Part shown: piece by piece, positions 9,001 to 18,000 of the stretch
Layout of the letters: every line of letters begins with the position of its first letter
Position numbering within the stretch: the first letter of the stretch is position 1
NCBI GenBank assembly: GCA_035289485.1
Contig: DATDXA010000020.1
Location: 1 to 24,991, forward strand
From: an archaeon
GTDB lineage: Archaea > Iainarchaeota > Iainarchaeia > Iainarchaeales > Iainarchaeaceae
Reading direction: 5' to 3'
DNA: 24,991 bases
Position numbers: made by a program

Positions 9001-12000
9001 TCTTCCGATTCGAAAATCTTGGCTGGGCCAGTAATCGAAGTGCGCTTAAGGCCTGAAACTTTTGCAACAGAGCCTTCTGGCGCCAAGTTGCCGCGCAGAA
9101 TCACAAGATGCCCGCTCTTTCGCAGCGGATTTTTCAAATCAGCAATTATTTTCTGGGTGGAATCAAGCTTTGGCGCGGATTTCAAATTTTCCGCCATTGT
9201 TTTTCCTGTAACCGTGATGCAATCTCCATGGAGCAGCCCGGCTTCAAAGAGCAGGCGAAGAACCGCAGCAGAGCCGCCCACTTTATCCAAATCCTCCATC
9301 ACATATTTTCCAGAAGGCTTTAGGTCGGCCAGAAGAGGAACCCTCTTTCCCACGCGGTCGAAATCATCCAAAGTGAGCGGGACACCAACGGTTTTTGCAA
9401 TAGCAATCAAATGCAGAACCGCATTTGTTGAGCCGCCAAGAGCCATCACCGCAGTGATTGCATTCTCGAATGCTTTTTTTGTCATGATGTCTTTTGGGCG
9501 GATGTTTTTTTTCGCCAAATCCAAAATGGCGGCGCCCGCTTCCTGAACATCCTTTTTTTTCTCATCGCTCTCAGCCGGATTTGAAGCGGAGCCAGGAAGG
9601 CTCATTCCAAGAGCCTCAATTGCAGCGGACATTGTATTTGCGGTATACATCCCGCCGCACGAACCGGCTCCGGGGCATGCGGAGCACTCGACTCCGTGCA
9701 AATCCTCTTTTGAAATTTTTCCCGCGCTGTACTGGCCAACGGCCTCGAAAATACTCACAATATCAATGTCCTTGCCATTGTAATGCCCGGGTTTTATTGT
9801 GCCGCCGTAAACAAAAATCGATGGGATATTGAGGCGCGCCATAGCCATTACGCACCCTGGCATATTTTTATCGCAGCCTCCAATCGCAACAAGGCCATCG
9901 AAAGCCTGCGCATTCGAAACAACCTCTATTGAATCCGCAATCACTTCGCGAGAAACAAGAGAATACTTCATCCCCTCTGTACCCATGGAAATGCCATCAC
10001 TCACTGTGATTGTGCCAAAGGTCTGCGCCTTCCCGCCCGCGCTTTCAATTCCGGTGCGCGCATCCAGGGCAAGCTTGTCTATGTGAGCATTGCAAGGGGT
10101 GATATCGCTCCAGAGGCTTGCGATGCCAATAATTGGCTTTTCAAAATCATTATCTGCAAAGCCTACGGCACGGAGCATGGCGCGGTTTGGCGCCCTTCGG
10201 TCACCTGAAGTTATGCGCGAACTCCTTTCATTGAGCTTTATTGGCATTTTAACCACAGAATATTGCCCAATAAAAGATTTTTAAGCTGGAACGAAAAAGC
10301 GTGAAAATCAGCCTCAGTCCGCCCATCTGCTCCGAAAGACGATAAGAAATATTCGGTTTTGGAGAAGTTGAAAAGAGAAGCTAGTTTTCTTGTTTGAGTA
10401 TTAGGGCTTTGTTGAATTTAATTGTTTCATTTGGCCTGGCGGTGTAGAAATGTGGTCTGGAATATAAAGAGCCAGCCTTTTAGGGTGCGGTTTATGAGTT
10501 CAAGATTGTATGCAAGCACCTTGATTGTTGCTTGTTTGCATTGGTTTTCGGGTTTGCGCGAGCAAACCCACGCCCCGAAGGGGCGTTTAATAGCCGAGTT
10601 TACTGATTCTACAAGCGCTCTGCGCTTGTACTTGTTTGCATCGAATAGTGCTGCAGCTTTGCGCCGCAGTTTTCCGTGTATGTATTGTTTGTGACCGTAT
10701 CCAAGGCGTCCTTTTTTCCACTCGCGCACAGGTATGTGGTTTTCTATTCCGTTTTCCCAACAGTACTCTCTGTTGAGAGCACTGTCGTACGCTTTGTCTG
10801 CGAGCACTCGCAACAGCGAGTGCTTGACCGCTCGCACGAGCGGTATGAACGAAAGCGTTTCGTGCTCGTGCTCTGTTGTCGTGTTCATGTTGAGCACGAG
10901 CTTGCTATTCAAATCGGCTATTAGAACGCTTTTAGTGAAGTTCTTGACCTCGACACCGTCAACACGTTTCGCATAGTAATGCGACGGATTCGTGTTTGAG
11001 AATCCTGTTCCGTCTATTCCAGCCTCAACCTTGTTGAGGCTCAAAAGCTTTTTGCATGAGCGCACCATACGCTCAAGCAAATTTTTAGGAAGGCGCTGCA
11101 ATGCCTTCTGAATAGTTGTGAAGTGCGGGATGCACTTGATTCCAAGCATGCGCTGCAGATTCATCTCGCTTGCTAGCCGCACAAACCGCCTGTATGAAAC
11201 GTTGAGGCGTTCTTTCATCACGAGCAAAAACACGTGCACAATGTTGTTGTACATTTTCTTGGAACGGTAAAAATTGTGCAAAGGCACTCTGGCCTGCGCA
11301 CAAAGGCGCAGGCAAAACTTATAAAAGTCTGAACACTGAATAGGTACTAAAGCGCTCATACTATCACCCAGATACTTGAGCGCTTTTCCTTTATTTATAA
11401 ATCATTTCTACAGAGCCATTTGGCCTATTGGATGGCGGATTTCTTTTTGAGCTCTTGCCATTTTTCGTATTCTTGCAGAAAGTAGAGAAATGACTGTGAA
11501 TGGCTTTTCTCGAACTCTTTAAGCGGGCTTGCCGTTTCCGGTTTCCTTTCTTTTAATTGCAATGTTGTTTGTGGCATTTGTGTACCTCAATAGACCTTTT
11601 GCGGCTTGAGGCACTTTTATTATTTTTGTTTAAGTTGTCTGCCAAAAACAGATTTTTTCTGGAAAAAAATAGACTGATTGAACGAATTCTTTTTATATCG
11701 CCGGAGCGGCAACGCTTGTACCGAGAAAAATCTCGGGAACTGGAGGTTTTGAAAATGAACAAAAAATTGATTTCGGTGTTCTCGCTGTTTTTCTTGCTCG
11801 CGCCAATGGCGCTTGCGGACACAACAGTTGCGGACATCACAGCGCCCGTAAACAAGATTTACGATCTTGTCAAGGGAATAGTTTCCGTGCTGGGAATAAT
11901 CGCCATCACGGTGGCAGGAGCCATGTACATGTTCTCAGGCTCAAACATACAATCAAGAGAAGCCGCAAAAAGCATGGTATCCTACGCAGTAATCGGATTA

Positions 12001-15000: not shown

Positions 15001-18000
15001 GCCACGGAGGGCAATTAATAGAAATTAACCGCGACAGCGACACCATCATCAACCCATTTGATTTAATGGGCGCCGAGCTCGGTGAAAAAACAATTTCACT
15101 CATGGATTTATTCAAAATAATGTGCGGCGAACTCACAGAAGTACAAAAAAATATTTTGGATAAGGCAGTGCACAAAGTTTACCAAAAGAAAGGAATAGTC
15201 CACAACAACCCGGAAACATGGCAAAAAGAGCCGCCAATAATGGAAGACATCTACAACGAAATACTTACTGAGAAAAAAACCGCGACAAGACAAGAACGAA
15301 TGACATACGAAGCCCTCGAAAACAGGCTCCGCATATACGTCCACGGCTCTTTCGCCTTCATCAACAAGCAAACCAACCTTGATTTGACCAACGACTTGAT
15401 TTGCTTCAACATAGCAAACATGCCCTCACAGATAAAACCGGTAATGATGTACCTCATAATGGATTTTGTCCACAAAAAAATGCAAAAAGACAAGGAACGC
15501 AAAACTCTAATCATTGACGAAGCATGGGCACTACTCAGATTCGCGGAGCACTCAAAAAGCATCTTTGAACTAATTAAAACAGCCAGAAAATTCGGCTTAG
15601 GGCTGTTAATCATCACGCAAGAGGTTGAGGATTTGCTCTCATCCGGCGCCGGAAAAACAATTCTTGCAAATACTTCATGGAAATACCTCTCCCGCCAAGA
15701 ACCGGCAGCGATAGCGGAGCTCGCGGAAAAATTCCATCTAAACGCCGAAGAACAAAATTATCTGCTTACCGCAATGCCCGGAGAAGGACTGCTCTTTGCA
15801 ATGAACGACCACATCCCTCTAAAGGTGGTTCCATCGCCACAAGAATTGGAACTCATAACCACAAACCCTGATGAAATCAGAAAAAGGGAAGAAAAACTCA
15901 AGGAACTGGGAGAGGAAAAAGAAAATCTCGAACCATATAAAATAGAAAAAAACTATTATCCGATGAAAGAACTCAACAAGAACCAAATCGAATTCCTAAA
16001 AGACAAAGGATTCATAGAAGCCCGCCTATGCGGACTCGAAACCTACTCGCAATGGTTTTTGGTAAAAAAGCCCGAATCAAATGAAAGTGTTGAACATTAT
16101 TTTATGGTGCAATCTATAGCCGATGAAATCCGCAAATACACGGAAAACGTCTCAACCTTCTCAAGCCTCGGGCCAGACGTAACATTCCAAATCCAGAGGA
16201 ACGAAGACCAAATAGACTGGTACGCCATTGAAGTAGAAACCGGCTCGCAACTCACACACCAAGGTGATTTGGAACTCAAAACTTACAAGAACAACACCTC
16301 GGAAAAGCCAAAATACAAGGAATGGCTGTTCATCGTTACCGATAAGAAACTGAAGCAGGATTATGGTAAACTACATGAAGCTCTTACGAGGGCGGAGATA
16401 AAGGAGAAAATACAAACTCTGTTCAAATAGGCATATAACAAGTCTTTATAAACTACGAAAATTACTTATATATAAGTAATATTTATAAATAGTTTGAATT
16501 ACTTATATAGTAGGCATTTCCAATGGCGAGAACTAAAACCAAGAGAGTAGTGGCATTACTTTTAGACCCAAACTACAAACCAGTAAGCAAATATGAACTC
16601 GCCAAAAAAGCAGGATGCACACCGTCGTGGGCACTAATGCTGACAAAAAAATTAGAGAACAAAAAATTCCTAAAGAATTTAAAGGTTACAGATATAAAAA
16701 AATTATTTGAACTATTCCACAATCTAAGGGCAAAAAAGAACGAATCACGCAGCTATTCAATTTATTCCCTTGAAAATACAGACAAGCTAATGGACTTGTT
16801 CAAAAAAGCCAATAAAGAATACGCATTCACAACATACATTGCCGAAAATATTGTGCAGAAATACTTGTTTAGCCACAGGTCTGAAGCGTACATAAAAAAA
16901 GAAGACCTTGAAGACTGGCACAAGGAATTAACCAAACTAGGCACCTATGGCGGTGGAAATGTAAGAATAATAGTTTCCAGTAGCGAAGAACTATTCAACA
17001 AAAAACAAATCGGCAACAACGGCCCATGGATAGTTAGCACACCACAACTAATTTCAGACTTATACACCGAAGGCGGACCAGCAAAAGAAGCAGGGGACAT
17101 GCTATTGGAAAAGCTCATTAAAGATATAGAGGCGAAAAAATAATGTACCCGCAAAAAGAAACTGACCAGTCGTTTGAATACTTGAAAAAAGTAGTCGCCA
17201 TCCTAGATGAACCGATATGCCTTATTGGTGGATGGGCAATTTATTTTACAGTAAACAAAAATTACCAAGCTTCGGTGGGAAGAAAATACATTGGCTCAAA
17301 GGACATAGATTTGGGATTCCACATTGACGAAAAACAGGAATTTGCCAATTCTGCTTTTGCAAAAGCCATAAAAAAACTTGAAGAGGAAGGATTTACCGAA
17401 GCTGGCGGAAGAATGGTAAAGGATCTTGATTATGACACCGGCAAAGAAATAAAGCCGGAAGACGCCAAAACAAAGCCAATGTACGAACTCCACAAAATGT
17501 ACGTTGATTTGATGGCTGACCAAATTCCAAAAACAAACCCTTGGGGAAAATCAGGACTCATATTTGACGAAGAGCTTTTGGATTACGTTTTCGATGATGA
17601 AAGGCACCGCATAGAACTTGAACAATTTAAAAGGAAACTTTGGATGCCGCAACCTTGGCTCTTGCTTGCTATGAAAATTAAGGCACTGCCGAATAGGCAA
17701 AAAGACCACAAGCGCCAAAAGGACATAGCAGATATATCTGTCATACTTACATTCACGAACCAGTTGACTTATGGCCCGAACCTAACCCAAGTTCTTTCAA
17801 GAGATAAAATTCTGGAAAGTTTGAACAGCATAACTGAAGAAGAAGTGAAAGAAACAGAAAAACTTCTCGGGCTCCAAACAAACACTTTCAGAGCCCCACT
17901 CAATAACCTGATTAGACAAATTGAAACAAATGACTTTGTATTTATTGAAGAAATAGAGGAATGGCAAAATGAAATCACAAAAGCAATAGAAAAGCGCAAC

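What a model noticed while it worked through the whole genome (the two positions that open the first line are those of the whole stretch)
11557..16430. Minimal type IV secretion (Ced/Ted-like) module with a VirB4-nuclease fusion in an Iainarchaeote
A four-gene module on an otherwise archaeal housekeeping contig encodes a TrbC/VirB2-type pilin, a 7-TM VirB6-like protein, a VirB3-like/VirB4 N-domain protein and a 745-aa VirB4 ATPase whose extra C-terminal 190 residues look like a winged-helix + PD-(D/E)xK nuclease. I read it as a chromosomal, relaxase-less DNA-transfer (import/exchange) machine of DPANN Iainarchaeota, analogous to Ced/Ted of Crenarchaeota and to the near-universal T4SS of CPR bacteria, in which the motor itself carries the DNA-cutting domain. 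New would be a T4SS family in Iainarchaeota and a VirB4-nuclease fusion.
Evidence so far: Pfam: C20:11557-12060 T4SS_pilin/TrbC (E 1e-12; call 43); C20:13179-14030 PrgI + NCBIfam VirB4 N-part; C20:14193-16430 TraG P-loop/DUF87, NCBIfam conju_CD1110 VirB4 326 bits over res 11-544, CedB 58 bits. C20:12071-13168: signal peptide + 6 hydrophobic segments. Same 4 genes in same order in 5 of 5 relatives looked at (L182-L186, 37-84% id; call 61) while flanking genes differ. VirB4 homolog in 46 of 201 genomes of the phylum, 15 of 21 of the family. No relaxase/VirD4 Pfam hit on the contig. C-terminal 190 aa: invariant D107, E125, E127, K141 in 6/6; AF2 pLDDT 81; Foldseek best hits FokI, Cdn1/Can2, BamHI, Mus81 (E 5e-3, prob .97; call 72);
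(Added by a program. Inside this text positions count along the whole contig: contig position 1 is position 1 of the stretch shown here. "Call 12" and the like, gene names such as g00115 and contig names such as C1 are that model's own, and its searches are not shown. The text may have been shortened before it was handed on; [...] marks where a part breaks off. The agent that wrote the report below was given it as the finding of a first reader that could run no searches.)

Follow-up and report, generated by a model that had tools for sequence, protein, structure and literature searches.

The report
Mobile minimal T4SS with nuclease-tailed motor
A tiny groundwater archaeon carries, in a recently acquired stretch of its genome, a stripped-down version of the bacterial conjugation machine whose motor protein ends in a DNA-cutting-type domain, a possible answer to how such archaeal systems handle DNA without the usual nicking enzyme.

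Summary
Window 11755-16430 encodes a VirB2/TrbC-type pilin, a VirB6-like channel protein, a PrgI(VirB3)+TraC-like/TrsD protein and a VirB4 ATPase. The order is kept in 15 of 15 related loci that have enough upstream DNA.

The extra C-terminal ~160 residues of VirB4 fold confidently (pLDDT 90) as a winged helix plus an alpha-beta-beta-beta-alpha-beta core. H, D and E are invariant, and a second E and a K nearly so. The best fold matches are PD-(D/E)xK nucleases.

- The module is horizontally mobile. VirB4 is 80-84% identical between families whose TrpRS is 36-38% identical, and it sits in a >=14.7-kb insertion in a variable slot.
- The VirB4-nuclease fusion extends to a second DPANN phylum, in 59 of 301 sampled genomes.
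- The domain also occurs as orphan, mostly membrane-anchored proteins.

No relaxase or coupling protein was found with the families searched.

Best reading (about 0.5): a relaxase-less DNA-transfer machine whose motor carries its own DNA-processing domain. Activity and transfer direction are untested.

I found no published description. Earlier notes of this scan reported the same kind of module on other DPANN DNA at least eight times.

The parts
11755..12060 (+). VirB2/TrbC-type pilin: 101 aa, with a signal peptide and two hydrophobic helices. The mechanical ORF starts at TTG 11557.
   Evidence: Pfam T4SS_pilin E 1.3e-12 and TrbC E 4.2e-11. SD GGAGGT 11742-47 and ATG 11755. A 15-sequence alignment has 17 invariant columns.
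12071..13168 (+). VirB6-like polytopic channel protein: signal peptide, variable ~70-aa outer segment, then a helical membrane bundle.
13179..14030 (+). VirB3-like membrane anchor (PrgI, res 5-80) fused to the VirB4 N-terminal TraC-like/TrsD-like domain (res ~86-282).
   Evidence: PrgI 29.2 bits. VirB4_plasma positions 3-288 of 894, E 1.1e-15. TrsD E 1.1e-5. Atlas structure rows name PF26593 TraC-like for res 86-282. It is fused to g4 in L008 (1029 aa) and in the ~1000-aa forms of the other DPANN phylum.
14193..15950 (+). VirB4 ATPase core with intact Walker A and B, plus a linker.
   Evidence: conju_CD1110 326 bits (cut-off 325), P-loop_TraG E 3.1e-27, DUF87, AAA_10. The best plasmid relatives are Bacillota/Actinomycetota VirB4 at 27-30% identity.
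15954..16430 (+). C-terminal winged helix (about 15954-16067) plus a PD-(D/E)xK-like core (about 16089-16427) of the same VirB4 protein.
18510..19043 (-). TrmB/Lrs14-type winged-helix regulator, convergent with the operon. It is the probable fifth conserved part.
   Evidence: Pfam TrmB E 1.6e-9. A homolog (39-59% identity) lies on the opposite strand downstream of VirB4 in 8 of the 15 loci that have >=2.5 kb downstream, at 40 bp to 5.3 kb.
11637..11698 (+). Dyad-repeat region (11637-11674) and a TATA-like box (11690-11698) in front of the pilin gene. Candidate operator and promoter.
   Evidence: Alignment of 10 upstream regions. The block around the TATA-like box (consensus ...GACAAAA-CTTTTTATA...) is largely conserved across the 10 upstream regions, and locus-specific dyads precede it. 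Function is inferred only.
16523..18504 (+). Variable cargo between VirB4 and the regulator: a wHTH protein plus a nucleotidyltransferase, an AbiEi/AbiEii-like pair.
   Evidence: AbiEii is weak here (E 0.012). Clear AbiEi/AbiEii or DUF6577 pairs sit at the same place in L001, L003 and L012, and by shared clusters in L007 and L011. These genes are not conserved with the module.
10427..11359 (-). IS5-family transposase at the left edge of the inserted region.
   Evidence: NF033579 transpos_IS5_2 E 1.4e-44, DDE_Tnp_1. Single copy in the assembly.

Best explanation
This is a minimal, conjugation-type (MPF-FATA-like) type IV secretion machine carried on horizontally mobile DNA of DPANN archaea.

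Shown: the parts list.
- A VirB2-type pilin.
- A VirB6-like channel whose first helical hairpin is homologous to the pilin.
- A VirB3-like anchor with the VirB4 N-domain.
- A VirB4 motor.
- A co-travelling TrmB-type regulator.

Shown: recent transfer between families, and insertion in a variable genomic slot.

Inferred: the machine moves DNA between cells. The winged-helix plus PD-(D/E)xK domain at the cytoplasmic end of each VirB4 subunit would bind and nick or cut the DNA at the channel entrance. It would thereby stand in for the missing relaxase and coupling protein. This would work as MOB_C relaxases (also a winged helix plus a restriction-endonuclease fold) do in bacteria, or as the nucleases of the Thermus TdtA element do.
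For: Part identities:
- Pfam and NCBIfam hits.
- Pilin to g2 hhalign Prob 94.7. This is the relation that Beltran et al. report for CedA1/CedA and VirB2/VirB6 (PMC9905601, passages).

Conservation: gene order is kept in 15 of 15 loci.

Mobility:
- VirB4 is 80-84% identical to five genomes of two other families. Their TrpRS is 36-38% identical, and IlvD is 42% identical in the 1 of 5 that has it. Within the genus these housekeeping proteins are 81-87% identical.
- Synteny ends at ilvD in 4 of 4 genus relatives and resumes at the start of the window genome's contig C25.
- There is an IS5 at the edge, tyrosine integrases upstream in L020 and L021, and AbiE/PIN/Fic/TIR/R-M genes around the module.
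- Some genomes hold 2-3 copies, and some hold fragments with stops.

Nuclease-like domain:
- pLDDT 90, with the canonical core topology.
- H86, D113 and E131 are invariant in 45 of 45 sequences; E133 and K147 are conserved at >=90%.
- Foldseek's top hits are FokI (E 7.9e-4), BamHI, Mus81, Cdn1/Can2 and HindIII.
- VIA: VC1899 6.8, Cdn1 6.6, Card1 6.3, N.BspD6I 6.3, VRR_NUC 6.3, Hjc 5.5.
- Weak Pfam hits among the 45 members go to CoiA_nuc, VRR_NUC and AHJR-like, 2 members each.

The fusion is old and kept: C-domain matches occur in 59 of 301 sampled genomes of a second DPANN phylum, mostly in 890-1070-aa frames (the count includes unpublished G458).

No VirD4 (PF02534), MOB_P (PF03432) or MOB_C (PF13814) match in the 90%-complete genome.

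Precedents: MOB_C relaxases have a PD-(D/E)xK fold, and TraX has an N-terminal winged helix (PMC12857230, passages). Nucleases are required for TdtA-driven transfer (PMC5365140, passages).
Against: No activity, substrate or direction has been tested.

The motif is ExE plus a distal K, not the classical ExK. In L011 and L013 the second E is Q.

Profile comparison with MOB_C (Replic_Relax) gave Prob 0.2%, so there is no specific homology to a known relaxase.

The domain also exists as orphan proteins. None of the 15 loci that showed one has a VirB4, pilin or VirB6-like gene within about 7 kb. Its function therefore need not be tied to a T4SS.

Only the 4-5 genes travel together. No conserved integrase, replication gene or oriT was found, so what mobilises the cassette is unknown.

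Only three relaxase/T4CP families were searched. MOB_F, H, Q, T, V, M and TcpA were not.
Confidence: 0.5

Rival explanations
1. It is a host-interaction or uptake organelle, like the T4SS of Patescibacteria. The pilus and channel would connect the small archaeon to another cell and import DNA or nucleotides. The cytoplasmic nuclease domain would cut up what comes in.
For: The part list matches the one reported for Patescibacteria: VirB4, TrsD, PrgI/VirB3, VirB6 and VirB2-like pilins, with relaxase mostly absent and the system essential for epibiotic growth (PMC12102498, passages). Here the same parts are seen. The host genomes are DPANN genomes of 0.6-1.5 Mb. No relaxase or T4CP was found.
Against: The module is present in only 45 of 215 genomes of the phylum and 23 of 79 genera. 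It was recently transferred between families. It sits in a variable slot. Multi-copy and decayed copies occur. None of this fits an essential, vertically kept organelle. Membership in the Patescibacteria VirB4 clade was not tested.
Confidence: 0.2
2. It is a Ced/Ted-like domesticated importer of conspecific DNA for recombinational repair.
For: It has the same minimal composition as Ced and Ted, namely VirB2-, VirB6- and VirB4-like proteins (PMC9905601, passages). The pilin and the channel are homologous to each other, as in CedA1/CedA. A nuclease could process DNA ends.
Against: CedB and CedD models score 58 and 45 bits against cut-offs of 700 and 600. The VirB4 is much closer to the MPF-FATA CD1110 type (326 bits). 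Distribution is patchy, and mobility between families is shown. No Ups-like or HerA/Rad50 linkage appears in 22 loci.
Confidence: 0.1
3. The C-terminal domain does not process the transferred DNA. It is a membrane-proximal defence or exclusion nuclease, or an inactive DNA-binding module, that was captured by VirB4.
For: Of the 150 best homologs of the domain, only 27 carry the ATPase. Another 44 have an N-terminal extension with predicted membrane helices, and 67 are the domain alone. In 15 of 15 orphan loci no T4SS gene lies nearby. The module's neighbours are often defence or toxin genes.
Against: The fusion is kept in 21 of 21 VirB4 C-termini that could be read in the related loci. It is also kept in most matches of a second phylum, which argues for a role in the machine itself. 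Some orphans keep VirB3/VirB4-N-like N-termini, so they may be motor-less derivatives of the fusion rather than its source.
Confidence: 0.15

Closest known systems
T4SS of Patescibacteria/CPR (Quinonero-Coronel et al. 2025, PMC12102498; passages read)
   Same: Part for part the same set: VirB2-like pilin (PF18895/PF04956), VirB6, PrgI/VirB3, TrsD-like VirB4 N-domain protein and VirB4. It is MPF-FATA-like and usually lacks a relaxase. The hosts are ultra-small with reduced genomes.
   Different: Here the hosts are archaea, and PrgI and the TrsD-like domain are one protein. VirB4 carries a winged-helix plus nuclease-like tail. That paper's text has no occurrence of 'nuclease'. This module is found in about a fifth of genomes and is mobile, not near-universal or essential. 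No VirB8, VirB1 or VirD4 was seen. Whether the VirB4s are sister clades was not tested.
MPF-FATA conjugative T4SS of Bacillota/Mollicutes elements (VirB4 of the CD1110 and Mbov_0397 families; pGO1 TrsD+TrsE)
   Same: These give the best model matches for VirB4 (326 and 277 bits). A VirB3-VirB4 fusion or a split N-domain (TrsD) is known there. The closest plasmid VirB4s are 27-30% identical.
   Different: No coupling protein or relaxase was found. A pilin gene is present, which is unusual for monoderm systems according to PMC12857230. There is an extra C-terminal domain. The C-domain gave no tblastn match in 72,556 plasmid records at E <= 1.
Ced (Sulfolobales) and Ted (Thermoproteales) DNA-import systems (Beltran et al. 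2023, PMC9905601; passages read)
   Same: An archaeal, minimal VirB2+VirB6+VirB4 composition with no relaxase. The pilin is homologous to the N-terminal part of the channel protein.
   Different: There is no sequence-level membership: CedB scores 58 bits against a cut-off of 700. Ced and Ted are described as domesticated chromosomal systems, whereas this one moves between families. No nuclease fusion is mentioned in the passages read.
MOB_C relaxases (TraX of pAD1, MobC of CloDF13; Pfam Replic_Relax PF13814)
   Same: A winged-helix DNA-binding domain followed by a PD-(D/E)xK restriction-endonuclease-type catalytic domain, working with a T4SS. The conserved pattern is similar: H ... PD ... E-x-D/E ... 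K.
   Different: There is no detectable specific homology (hhalign Prob 0.2%; no PF13814 hit). MOB_C enzymes are separate proteins. Here the domain is the tail of the VirB4 motor.
TdtA element of Thermus thermophilus (transjugation; PMC5365140, passages read)
   Same: A mobile element in which an FtsK/HerA-superfamily motor pushes DNA out without a relaxase and needs element-encoded nucleases.
   Different: TdtA is not VirB4. That element has no pilin or VirB6, and its nucleases (NurA-like, Tth111II) are separate genes.
VirB4/TraG-like domains in and beside the giant SPEARE proteins of Nanohaloarchaeota (PMC10266531, passages read)
   Same: The only DPANN link to VirB4 that my searches returned.
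   Different: The architecture is entirely different: giant Ig-repeat proteins, with no pilin/VirB6/VirB3 operon. That paper argues against an endonuclease domain there.

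Membership tests
Type IV secretion system, MPF-FATA-like | VirB4-family ATPase with Walker A and B | tested here: met
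   conju_CD1110 326 bits (cut-off 325). P-loop_TraG 95.7 bits (cut-off 25.8). Motifs GTSGGGKS and LIIDEAW are present.
Type IV secretion system, MPF-FATA-like | VirB3/PrgI-like membrane anchor next to or fused with VirB4 | tested here: met
   PrgI 29.2 bits (cut-off 27) at g3 res 5-80. It is fused to a TraC-like/TrsD-like N-domain.
Type IV secretion system, MPF-FATA-like | VirB6-like polytopic channel subunit | tested here: met
Type IV secretion system, MPF-FATA-like | Coupling protein (VirD4 or TcpA type) | tested here: not met
   PF02534 has no match in the 90%-complete genome. None was seen in the flanks of 22 loci. TcpA was not searched on its own.
Type IV secretion system, MPF-FATA-like | Relaxase | tested here: not met
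   PF03432 and PF13814 have no match in the genome. PF13814 is over its cut-off in 1 of 215 genomes of the phylum, on a contig whose protein's closest relatives are named Chloroflexota or Anaerolineae. The other MOB families were not searched.
Ced / Ted DNA-import systems | Sequence membership of the ATPase (CedB/CedD models) | tested here: not met
   CedB 58.4 bits (cut-off 700) and CedD 45.4 bits (cut-off 600).
Ced / Ted DNA-import systems | Minimal VirB2+VirB6+VirB4 set, with the pilin homologous to the channel N-terminus | tested here: met
   Compared with passages of PMC9905601.
Ced / Ted DNA-import systems | DNA import between conspecific cells | not testable with these tools
   Needs genetics or co-culture.
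Patescibacteria T4SS | Part list: VirB4, TrsD, PrgI, VirB6, VirB2-like pilin | tested here: met
   compared with passages of PMC12102498.
Patescibacteria T4SS | VirB4 inside the monophyletic Patescibacteria clade | not tested
The 120 best relatives, where a source names them, are named archaeon, uncultured archaeon, Diapherotrites, 'Candidatus ainarchaeum' or Micrarchaeota, apart from one 'Sphaerochaetaceae bacterium'.
PD-(D/E)xK nuclease superfamily | alpha-beta-beta-beta-alpha-beta core | tested here: met
   AF2 model with pLDDT 90: H84-98, E104-106, E114-121, E124-133, H136-152, E159-166.
PD-(D/E)xK nuclease superfamily | Conserved acidic residues at the start of strand 2 and in strand 3, plus a lysine | tested here: met
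   D113 and E131 are invariant; E133 and K147 are conserved at >=90% in 45 sequences. The pattern is a variant, ExE plus a distal K (BamHI-like, from recall), not ExK.
PD-(D/E)xK nuclease superfamily | Significant similarity to a member family | tested here: inconclusive
MOB_C relaxases (Replic_Relax, PF13814) | Match to the family profile | tested here: not met
   No Pfam hit. hhalign of A2 against a 22-sequence Replic_Relax alignment: Prob 0.2%. That alignment came from one Chloroflexota-like subgroup only.

The most novel reading that the evidence does not exclude
The winged-helix plus PD-(D/E)xK tail of VirB4 is the missing DNA-processing enzyme of archaeal conjugation. This would be a T4SS without relaxase or coupling protein, in which the hexameric motor itself binds, nicks and feeds DNA into the channel. 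The resulting 5-7-kb cassette (pilin, channel, anchor, motor-nuclease, regulator) would be a self-spreading DNA-transfer unit. It moves between families of DPANN archaea and shuttles defence and toxin-antitoxin cargo in the slot between the motor and its regulator.
Probability: 0.3. Interest if true: 0.85.

Novelty: new variant of a known kind. Interest (0 to 1): 0.62.

Why it matters
Archaeal conjugative systems have no recognisable relaxase (PMC9905601, passages). How they choose and cut DNA is an open question. A nuclease-fold domain welded to the VirB4 motor, and kept across two DPANN phyla, is a concrete and testable candidate.

It also shows that the pilin-bearing minimal T4SS known from ultra-small bacteria has an archaeal counterpart in ultra-small archaea. 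Here that counterpart is mobile, which points to a route of gene flow among DPANN genomes. This includes the defence and toxin-antitoxin genes that ride next to it.

The C-terminal domain is a sizeable unannotated family: 314 cluster representatives at E <= 0.001.

Tried and rejected
Sequence searches that found nothing:
- The C-domain has no hit in Pfam, NCBIfam or PADLOC, in a PDB sequence profile search, or in 72,556 plasmid records by tblastn at E <= 1.
- The g2 profile against PDB sequences found only a chance-level row.

Searches that failed or could not run:
- The search for related loci with alignment A2 failed for lack of a conserved stretch.
- The search for related loci with the orphan protein P0014 found no relative.
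- The Iyer et al. 2004 FtsK-HerA paper is not held.

Comparison with MOB_C relaxases:
- The CloDF13 record has a fragmented mob region, so I did not use it as a MOB_C reference.
- hhalign of A2 against one Replic_Relax sequence, and then against a 22-sequence alignment, gave Prob 0.2% in both cases.

Other checks:
- The bacterial-type promoter and terminator scan gave no excess over shuffles, and archaeal promoters are not covered by it.
- No tRNA gene lies in the window or beside ilvD in four relatives, so no tRNA-type attachment site was found.
- No RNA holder was listed for the locus.
- Contigs of four DNA runs cover the whole stretch. They show a joint from 14197 to 19200 with 11 other letters in between, plus short-sided joints and loose ends at 16473 and 16708. 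In metagenomes these may come from other strains, so I draw nothing from them.
- Two cluster look-ups gave almost no names.
- A read-through of the g3/g4 gap was rejected, because there are two in-frame stops.

Not done: a tree with Patescibacteria VirB4, for lack of sequences.

Full report
**1. What is there**

The window is an archaeal housekeeping contig. It carries Fe-ADH, FEN1, a tRNA-binding protein, TrpRS/TyrRS-type synthetase, tRNA-intron endonuclease, MetAP and IlvD. After an IS5-family transposase (10427-11359, minus strand) come four co-directional genes.

- g1 is a VirB2/TrbC-type pilin: T4SS_pilin E 1.3e-12, TrbC E 4.2e-11. The mechanical ORF starts at TTG 11557. A GGAGGT at 11742-47, the ATG at 11755 and a signal-peptide-like start make a 101-aa pre-pilin the likely product.
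- g2 (365 aa) has no family hit.
- g3 (283 aa) is PrgI (29.2 bits, cut-off 27) followed by the N-terminal part of VirB4. It matches positions 3-288 of the 894-position Mbov_0397 VirB4 model and TrsD at E 1.1e-5. The Atlas structure rows name PF26593 TraC-like for this part.
- g4 (745 aa) continues at position 294 of the same model. It scores 326 bits on conju_CD1110 (cut-off 325) and has intact Walker motifs.

g3 and g4 share a frame, but two stops and a 163-nt spacer separate them. They are therefore two genes, not a read-through.

**2. Conservation**

A scan of one genome per species returned 22 related loci at 57-87% identity. Most are titled Candidatus Iainarchaeum or 'archaeon'.

All 15 loci with enough upstream DNA keep the order pilin, g2, g3, g4. 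The variations are:
- L001 has a 6-kb insert between g3 and g4.
- L011, L013 and L016 have an extra 370-490-aa gene after the pilin.
- L008 has g3 and g4 fused (1029 aa).
- L022 has a VirB4 frame of about 1250 aa. A database protein from a contig of the same length (P0229) carries LAGLIDADG and intein families.

A TrmB-type regulator homologous to window 18510-19043 lies on the opposite strand downstream of VirB4 in 8 of the 15 loci that have at least 2.5 kb downstream. The distance ranges from 40 bp to 5.3 kb.

The space between VirB4 and the regulator is filled with changing cargo. Examples are AbiEi/AbiEii pairs, a PIN protein, and a set of SRAP, VRR-NUC and family-B polymerase. In the window the cargo is a weak AbiE-like pair.

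No flank in any locus holds a relaxase or VirD4.

**3. The channel protein**

With 16 homologs, g2 folds at pLDDT 72.

The pilin profile aligns to g2 residues 120-172 with Prob 94.7 and E 5.9e-8. Beltran et al. describe the same relation for CedA1/CedA and VirB2/VirB6 (PMC9905601, passages).

**4. The C-terminal domain of VirB4**

It is present in all 21 VirB4 C-termini that could be read in the loci.

A search of 1.84 billion cluster representatives found 314 proteins at E <= 0.001 and 63 at E <= 1e-10. By my profile scan, the best 150 divide as follows:
- 27 carry the ATPase.
- 67 are the domain alone. Some of these are probably gene fragments.
- 44 have an N-terminal extension with predicted membrane helices.
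- 12 have an extension without membrane helices.

In a 45-sequence alignment H86, D113 and E131 are invariant, and E133, T134 and K147 are conserved at >=90%.

The AlphaFold model (pLDDT 90, pTM 0.80) shows a small winged helix followed by helix, three strands, helix, strand. D113 lies just ahead of the second strand, and E131/E133 lie in the third.

Among the 45 members, the weak Pfam hits shared by two members each include CoiA_nuc, VRR_NUC and AHJR-like, all nuclease families of this fold.

I take the fold assignment as likely (about 0.75) and catalytic activity as open.

**5. Is it a disguised relaxase?**

According to the 2025 T4SS review, these belong to the PD-(D/E)xK superfamily, and TraX of pAD1 has an N-terminal winged helix (PMC12857230, passages). 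Pfam Replic_Relax corresponds to MobC (PMC5357655, passages).

I tested this:
- Replic_Relax is over its cut-off in 1 of 215 genomes of the phylum. That protein's relatives are named Chloroflexota or Anaerolineae, so the contig is probably foreign.
- A 22-sequence Replic_Relax alignment against the domain alignment gave Prob 0.2%.

The conserved patterns look alike: H ... PD ... E-x-D/E ... K. That is architecture, not demonstrated homology.

**6. Mobility**

The left flank up to ilvD is syntenic in four genomes of the genus. To the right of ilvD, all four continue with a few variable genes and then purE and its neighbours. In the window's genome these lie at the start of contig C25. The variable genes are:
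- G014: Fic plus a nucleotidyltransferase.
- G015: a Na/H exchanger.
- G016: an AAA_14 protein.
- G011: ArsR plus SBF.

Window 10300-24991, which runs to the contig end, is therefore an insertion of at least 14.7 kb in a variable slot. The contig ends in a 100-bp repeat.

VirB4 is 80-84% identical to genomes of two other families. In the same five genomes TrpRS is 36-38% identical, and IlvD is 42% identical in the one genome that has it. Within the genus these proteins are 81-87% identical.

Some genomes hold two or three copies, and several hold fragments with stops.

The distribution is 16 of 23 genomes of the family and 45 of 215 of the phylum, covering 23 of 79 genera.

This is the signature of horizontally moving DNA. 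What moves it is not clear. Only the four genes and the regulator travel together, and integrases were seen upstream in only 2 of 22 loci.

**7. Beyond Iainarchaeota**

Proteins of 920-1070 aa that join VirB3, VirB4 and the domain occur in MAGs named Nanoarchaeota. In L033 and L034 a pilin-like and a VirB6-like gene precede them, giving a three-gene form.

In the phylum of one such genome, the domain profile matched 59 of 301 sampled genomes, mostly in 890-1070-aa frames (one of these genomes, G458, is unpublished). One 0.9-Mb genome has three full copies.

Orphan forms of 315-470 aa lie away from any T4SS gene in 15 of the 15 loci that showed one, out of 16 fetched. A few keep a VirB3/VirB4-N-like start, as if the motor had been deleted.

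**8. Literature**

Searches for VirB4, T4SS or conjugation terms together with DPANN, Iainarchaeota or nuclease fusions returned no description of this module or of a VirB4-nuclease fusion.

The nearest items are:
- the Patescibacteria T4SS paper;
- Ced/Ted;
- the VirB4/TraG domains of nanohaloarchaeal giant proteins.

I read passages only, and no supplements.

Earlier notes of this scan describe the same kind of module in at least eight other DPANN windows. It is therefore a recurrent find of the scan, not unique to this window.

**9. Verdict**

The most likely reading is a mobile, relaxase-less, conjugation-type DNA-transfer cassette whose VirB4 motor carries its own DNA-processing domain (about 0.5). 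The rivals are:
- a Patescibacteria-like host-contact or uptake machine (0.2);
- a defence/exclusion or non-catalytic role for the domain (0.15);
- a Ced/Ted-like repair importer (0.1).

It is a new variant of a known kind of system.

Noticed in passing
window 16523-18504; L001:10298-11871, L003:10983-11792, L012:4373-5326, L031:10114-11293: wHTH plus nucleotidyltransferase (AbiEi/AbiEii-type or DUF6577/DUF2204) pairs recur immediately downstream of VirB4 in several loci of two phyla. The slot between VirB4 and the TrmB regulator behaves as a cargo hotspot.
   Followed up: partly
window 11420-11577 (-): A 50-aa ORF is divergently transcribed from the pilin promoter region. It is 61% identical to a 46-aa ORF at the same place in L007. 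Other loci have unrelated small ORFs there.
   Followed up: partly
window 11637-11698: Dyad repeats (GTCTG..CAGA / TCTGG..TAGAC) lie just upstream of a TATA-like box in a largely conserved block. The dyads differ from locus to locus, as expected for operators of a co-evolving regulator.
   Followed up: no
L022:354-4105: The VirB4 frame of this relative is about 1250 aa. A database protein from a contig of the same length (P0229) carries LAGLIDADG and intein-splicing families, so an intein sits inside VirB4.
   Followed up: no
L001:1983-8001: In this relative a 6-kb block of minus-strand genes, including a 658-aa protein with a weak Peptidase_M64 hit, separates g3 from g4.
   Followed up: no
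L002, L033, L049; P0176: Probable mis-binned or mislabelled records. L002 ('Peregrinibacteria') has the same genes at the same coordinates as archaeal L003. L033 is titled Bdellovibrionales. P0176 is named Sphaerochaetaceae. L049 is a GC-rich Chloroflexota-like contig inside an Iainarchaeal MAG.
   Followed up: partly
window 10300-24991 vs L044-L047: The slot between ilvD and purE holds different accessory genes in each of five genomes of the genus. It is a recombination or insertion hotspot with no tRNA gene.
   Followed up: partly
window 24890-24991 and G000:C34:7008-7107: The last ~100 bp of the contig are 88% identical to a stretch of contig C34. This is probably one of the dispersed repeats noted elsewhere in this genome, and the cause of the assembly break.
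   Followed up: no
L052-L067 (e.g. L058:7319-8584, L066:6302-7621): These are orphan 315-470-aa proteins with membrane helices, a coiled coil and the winged-helix/nuclease-like domain. A few match the VirB3/VirB4-N part of the profile but lack the ATPase.
   Followed up: partly
L002:588-1655, L011 (cluster 5): A T2SSE-type (VirB11/PilB-like) ATPase lies 3-4 kb upstream of the pilin in 3 of 22 loci. The window's genome has five T2SSE genes elsewhere.
   Followed up: no
window 14197 / 19200: Contigs of three public DNA runs join these two places with 11 other letters in between. This may be a strain variant lacking g4 through the regulator, or another organism. It is not resolved.
   Followed up: no
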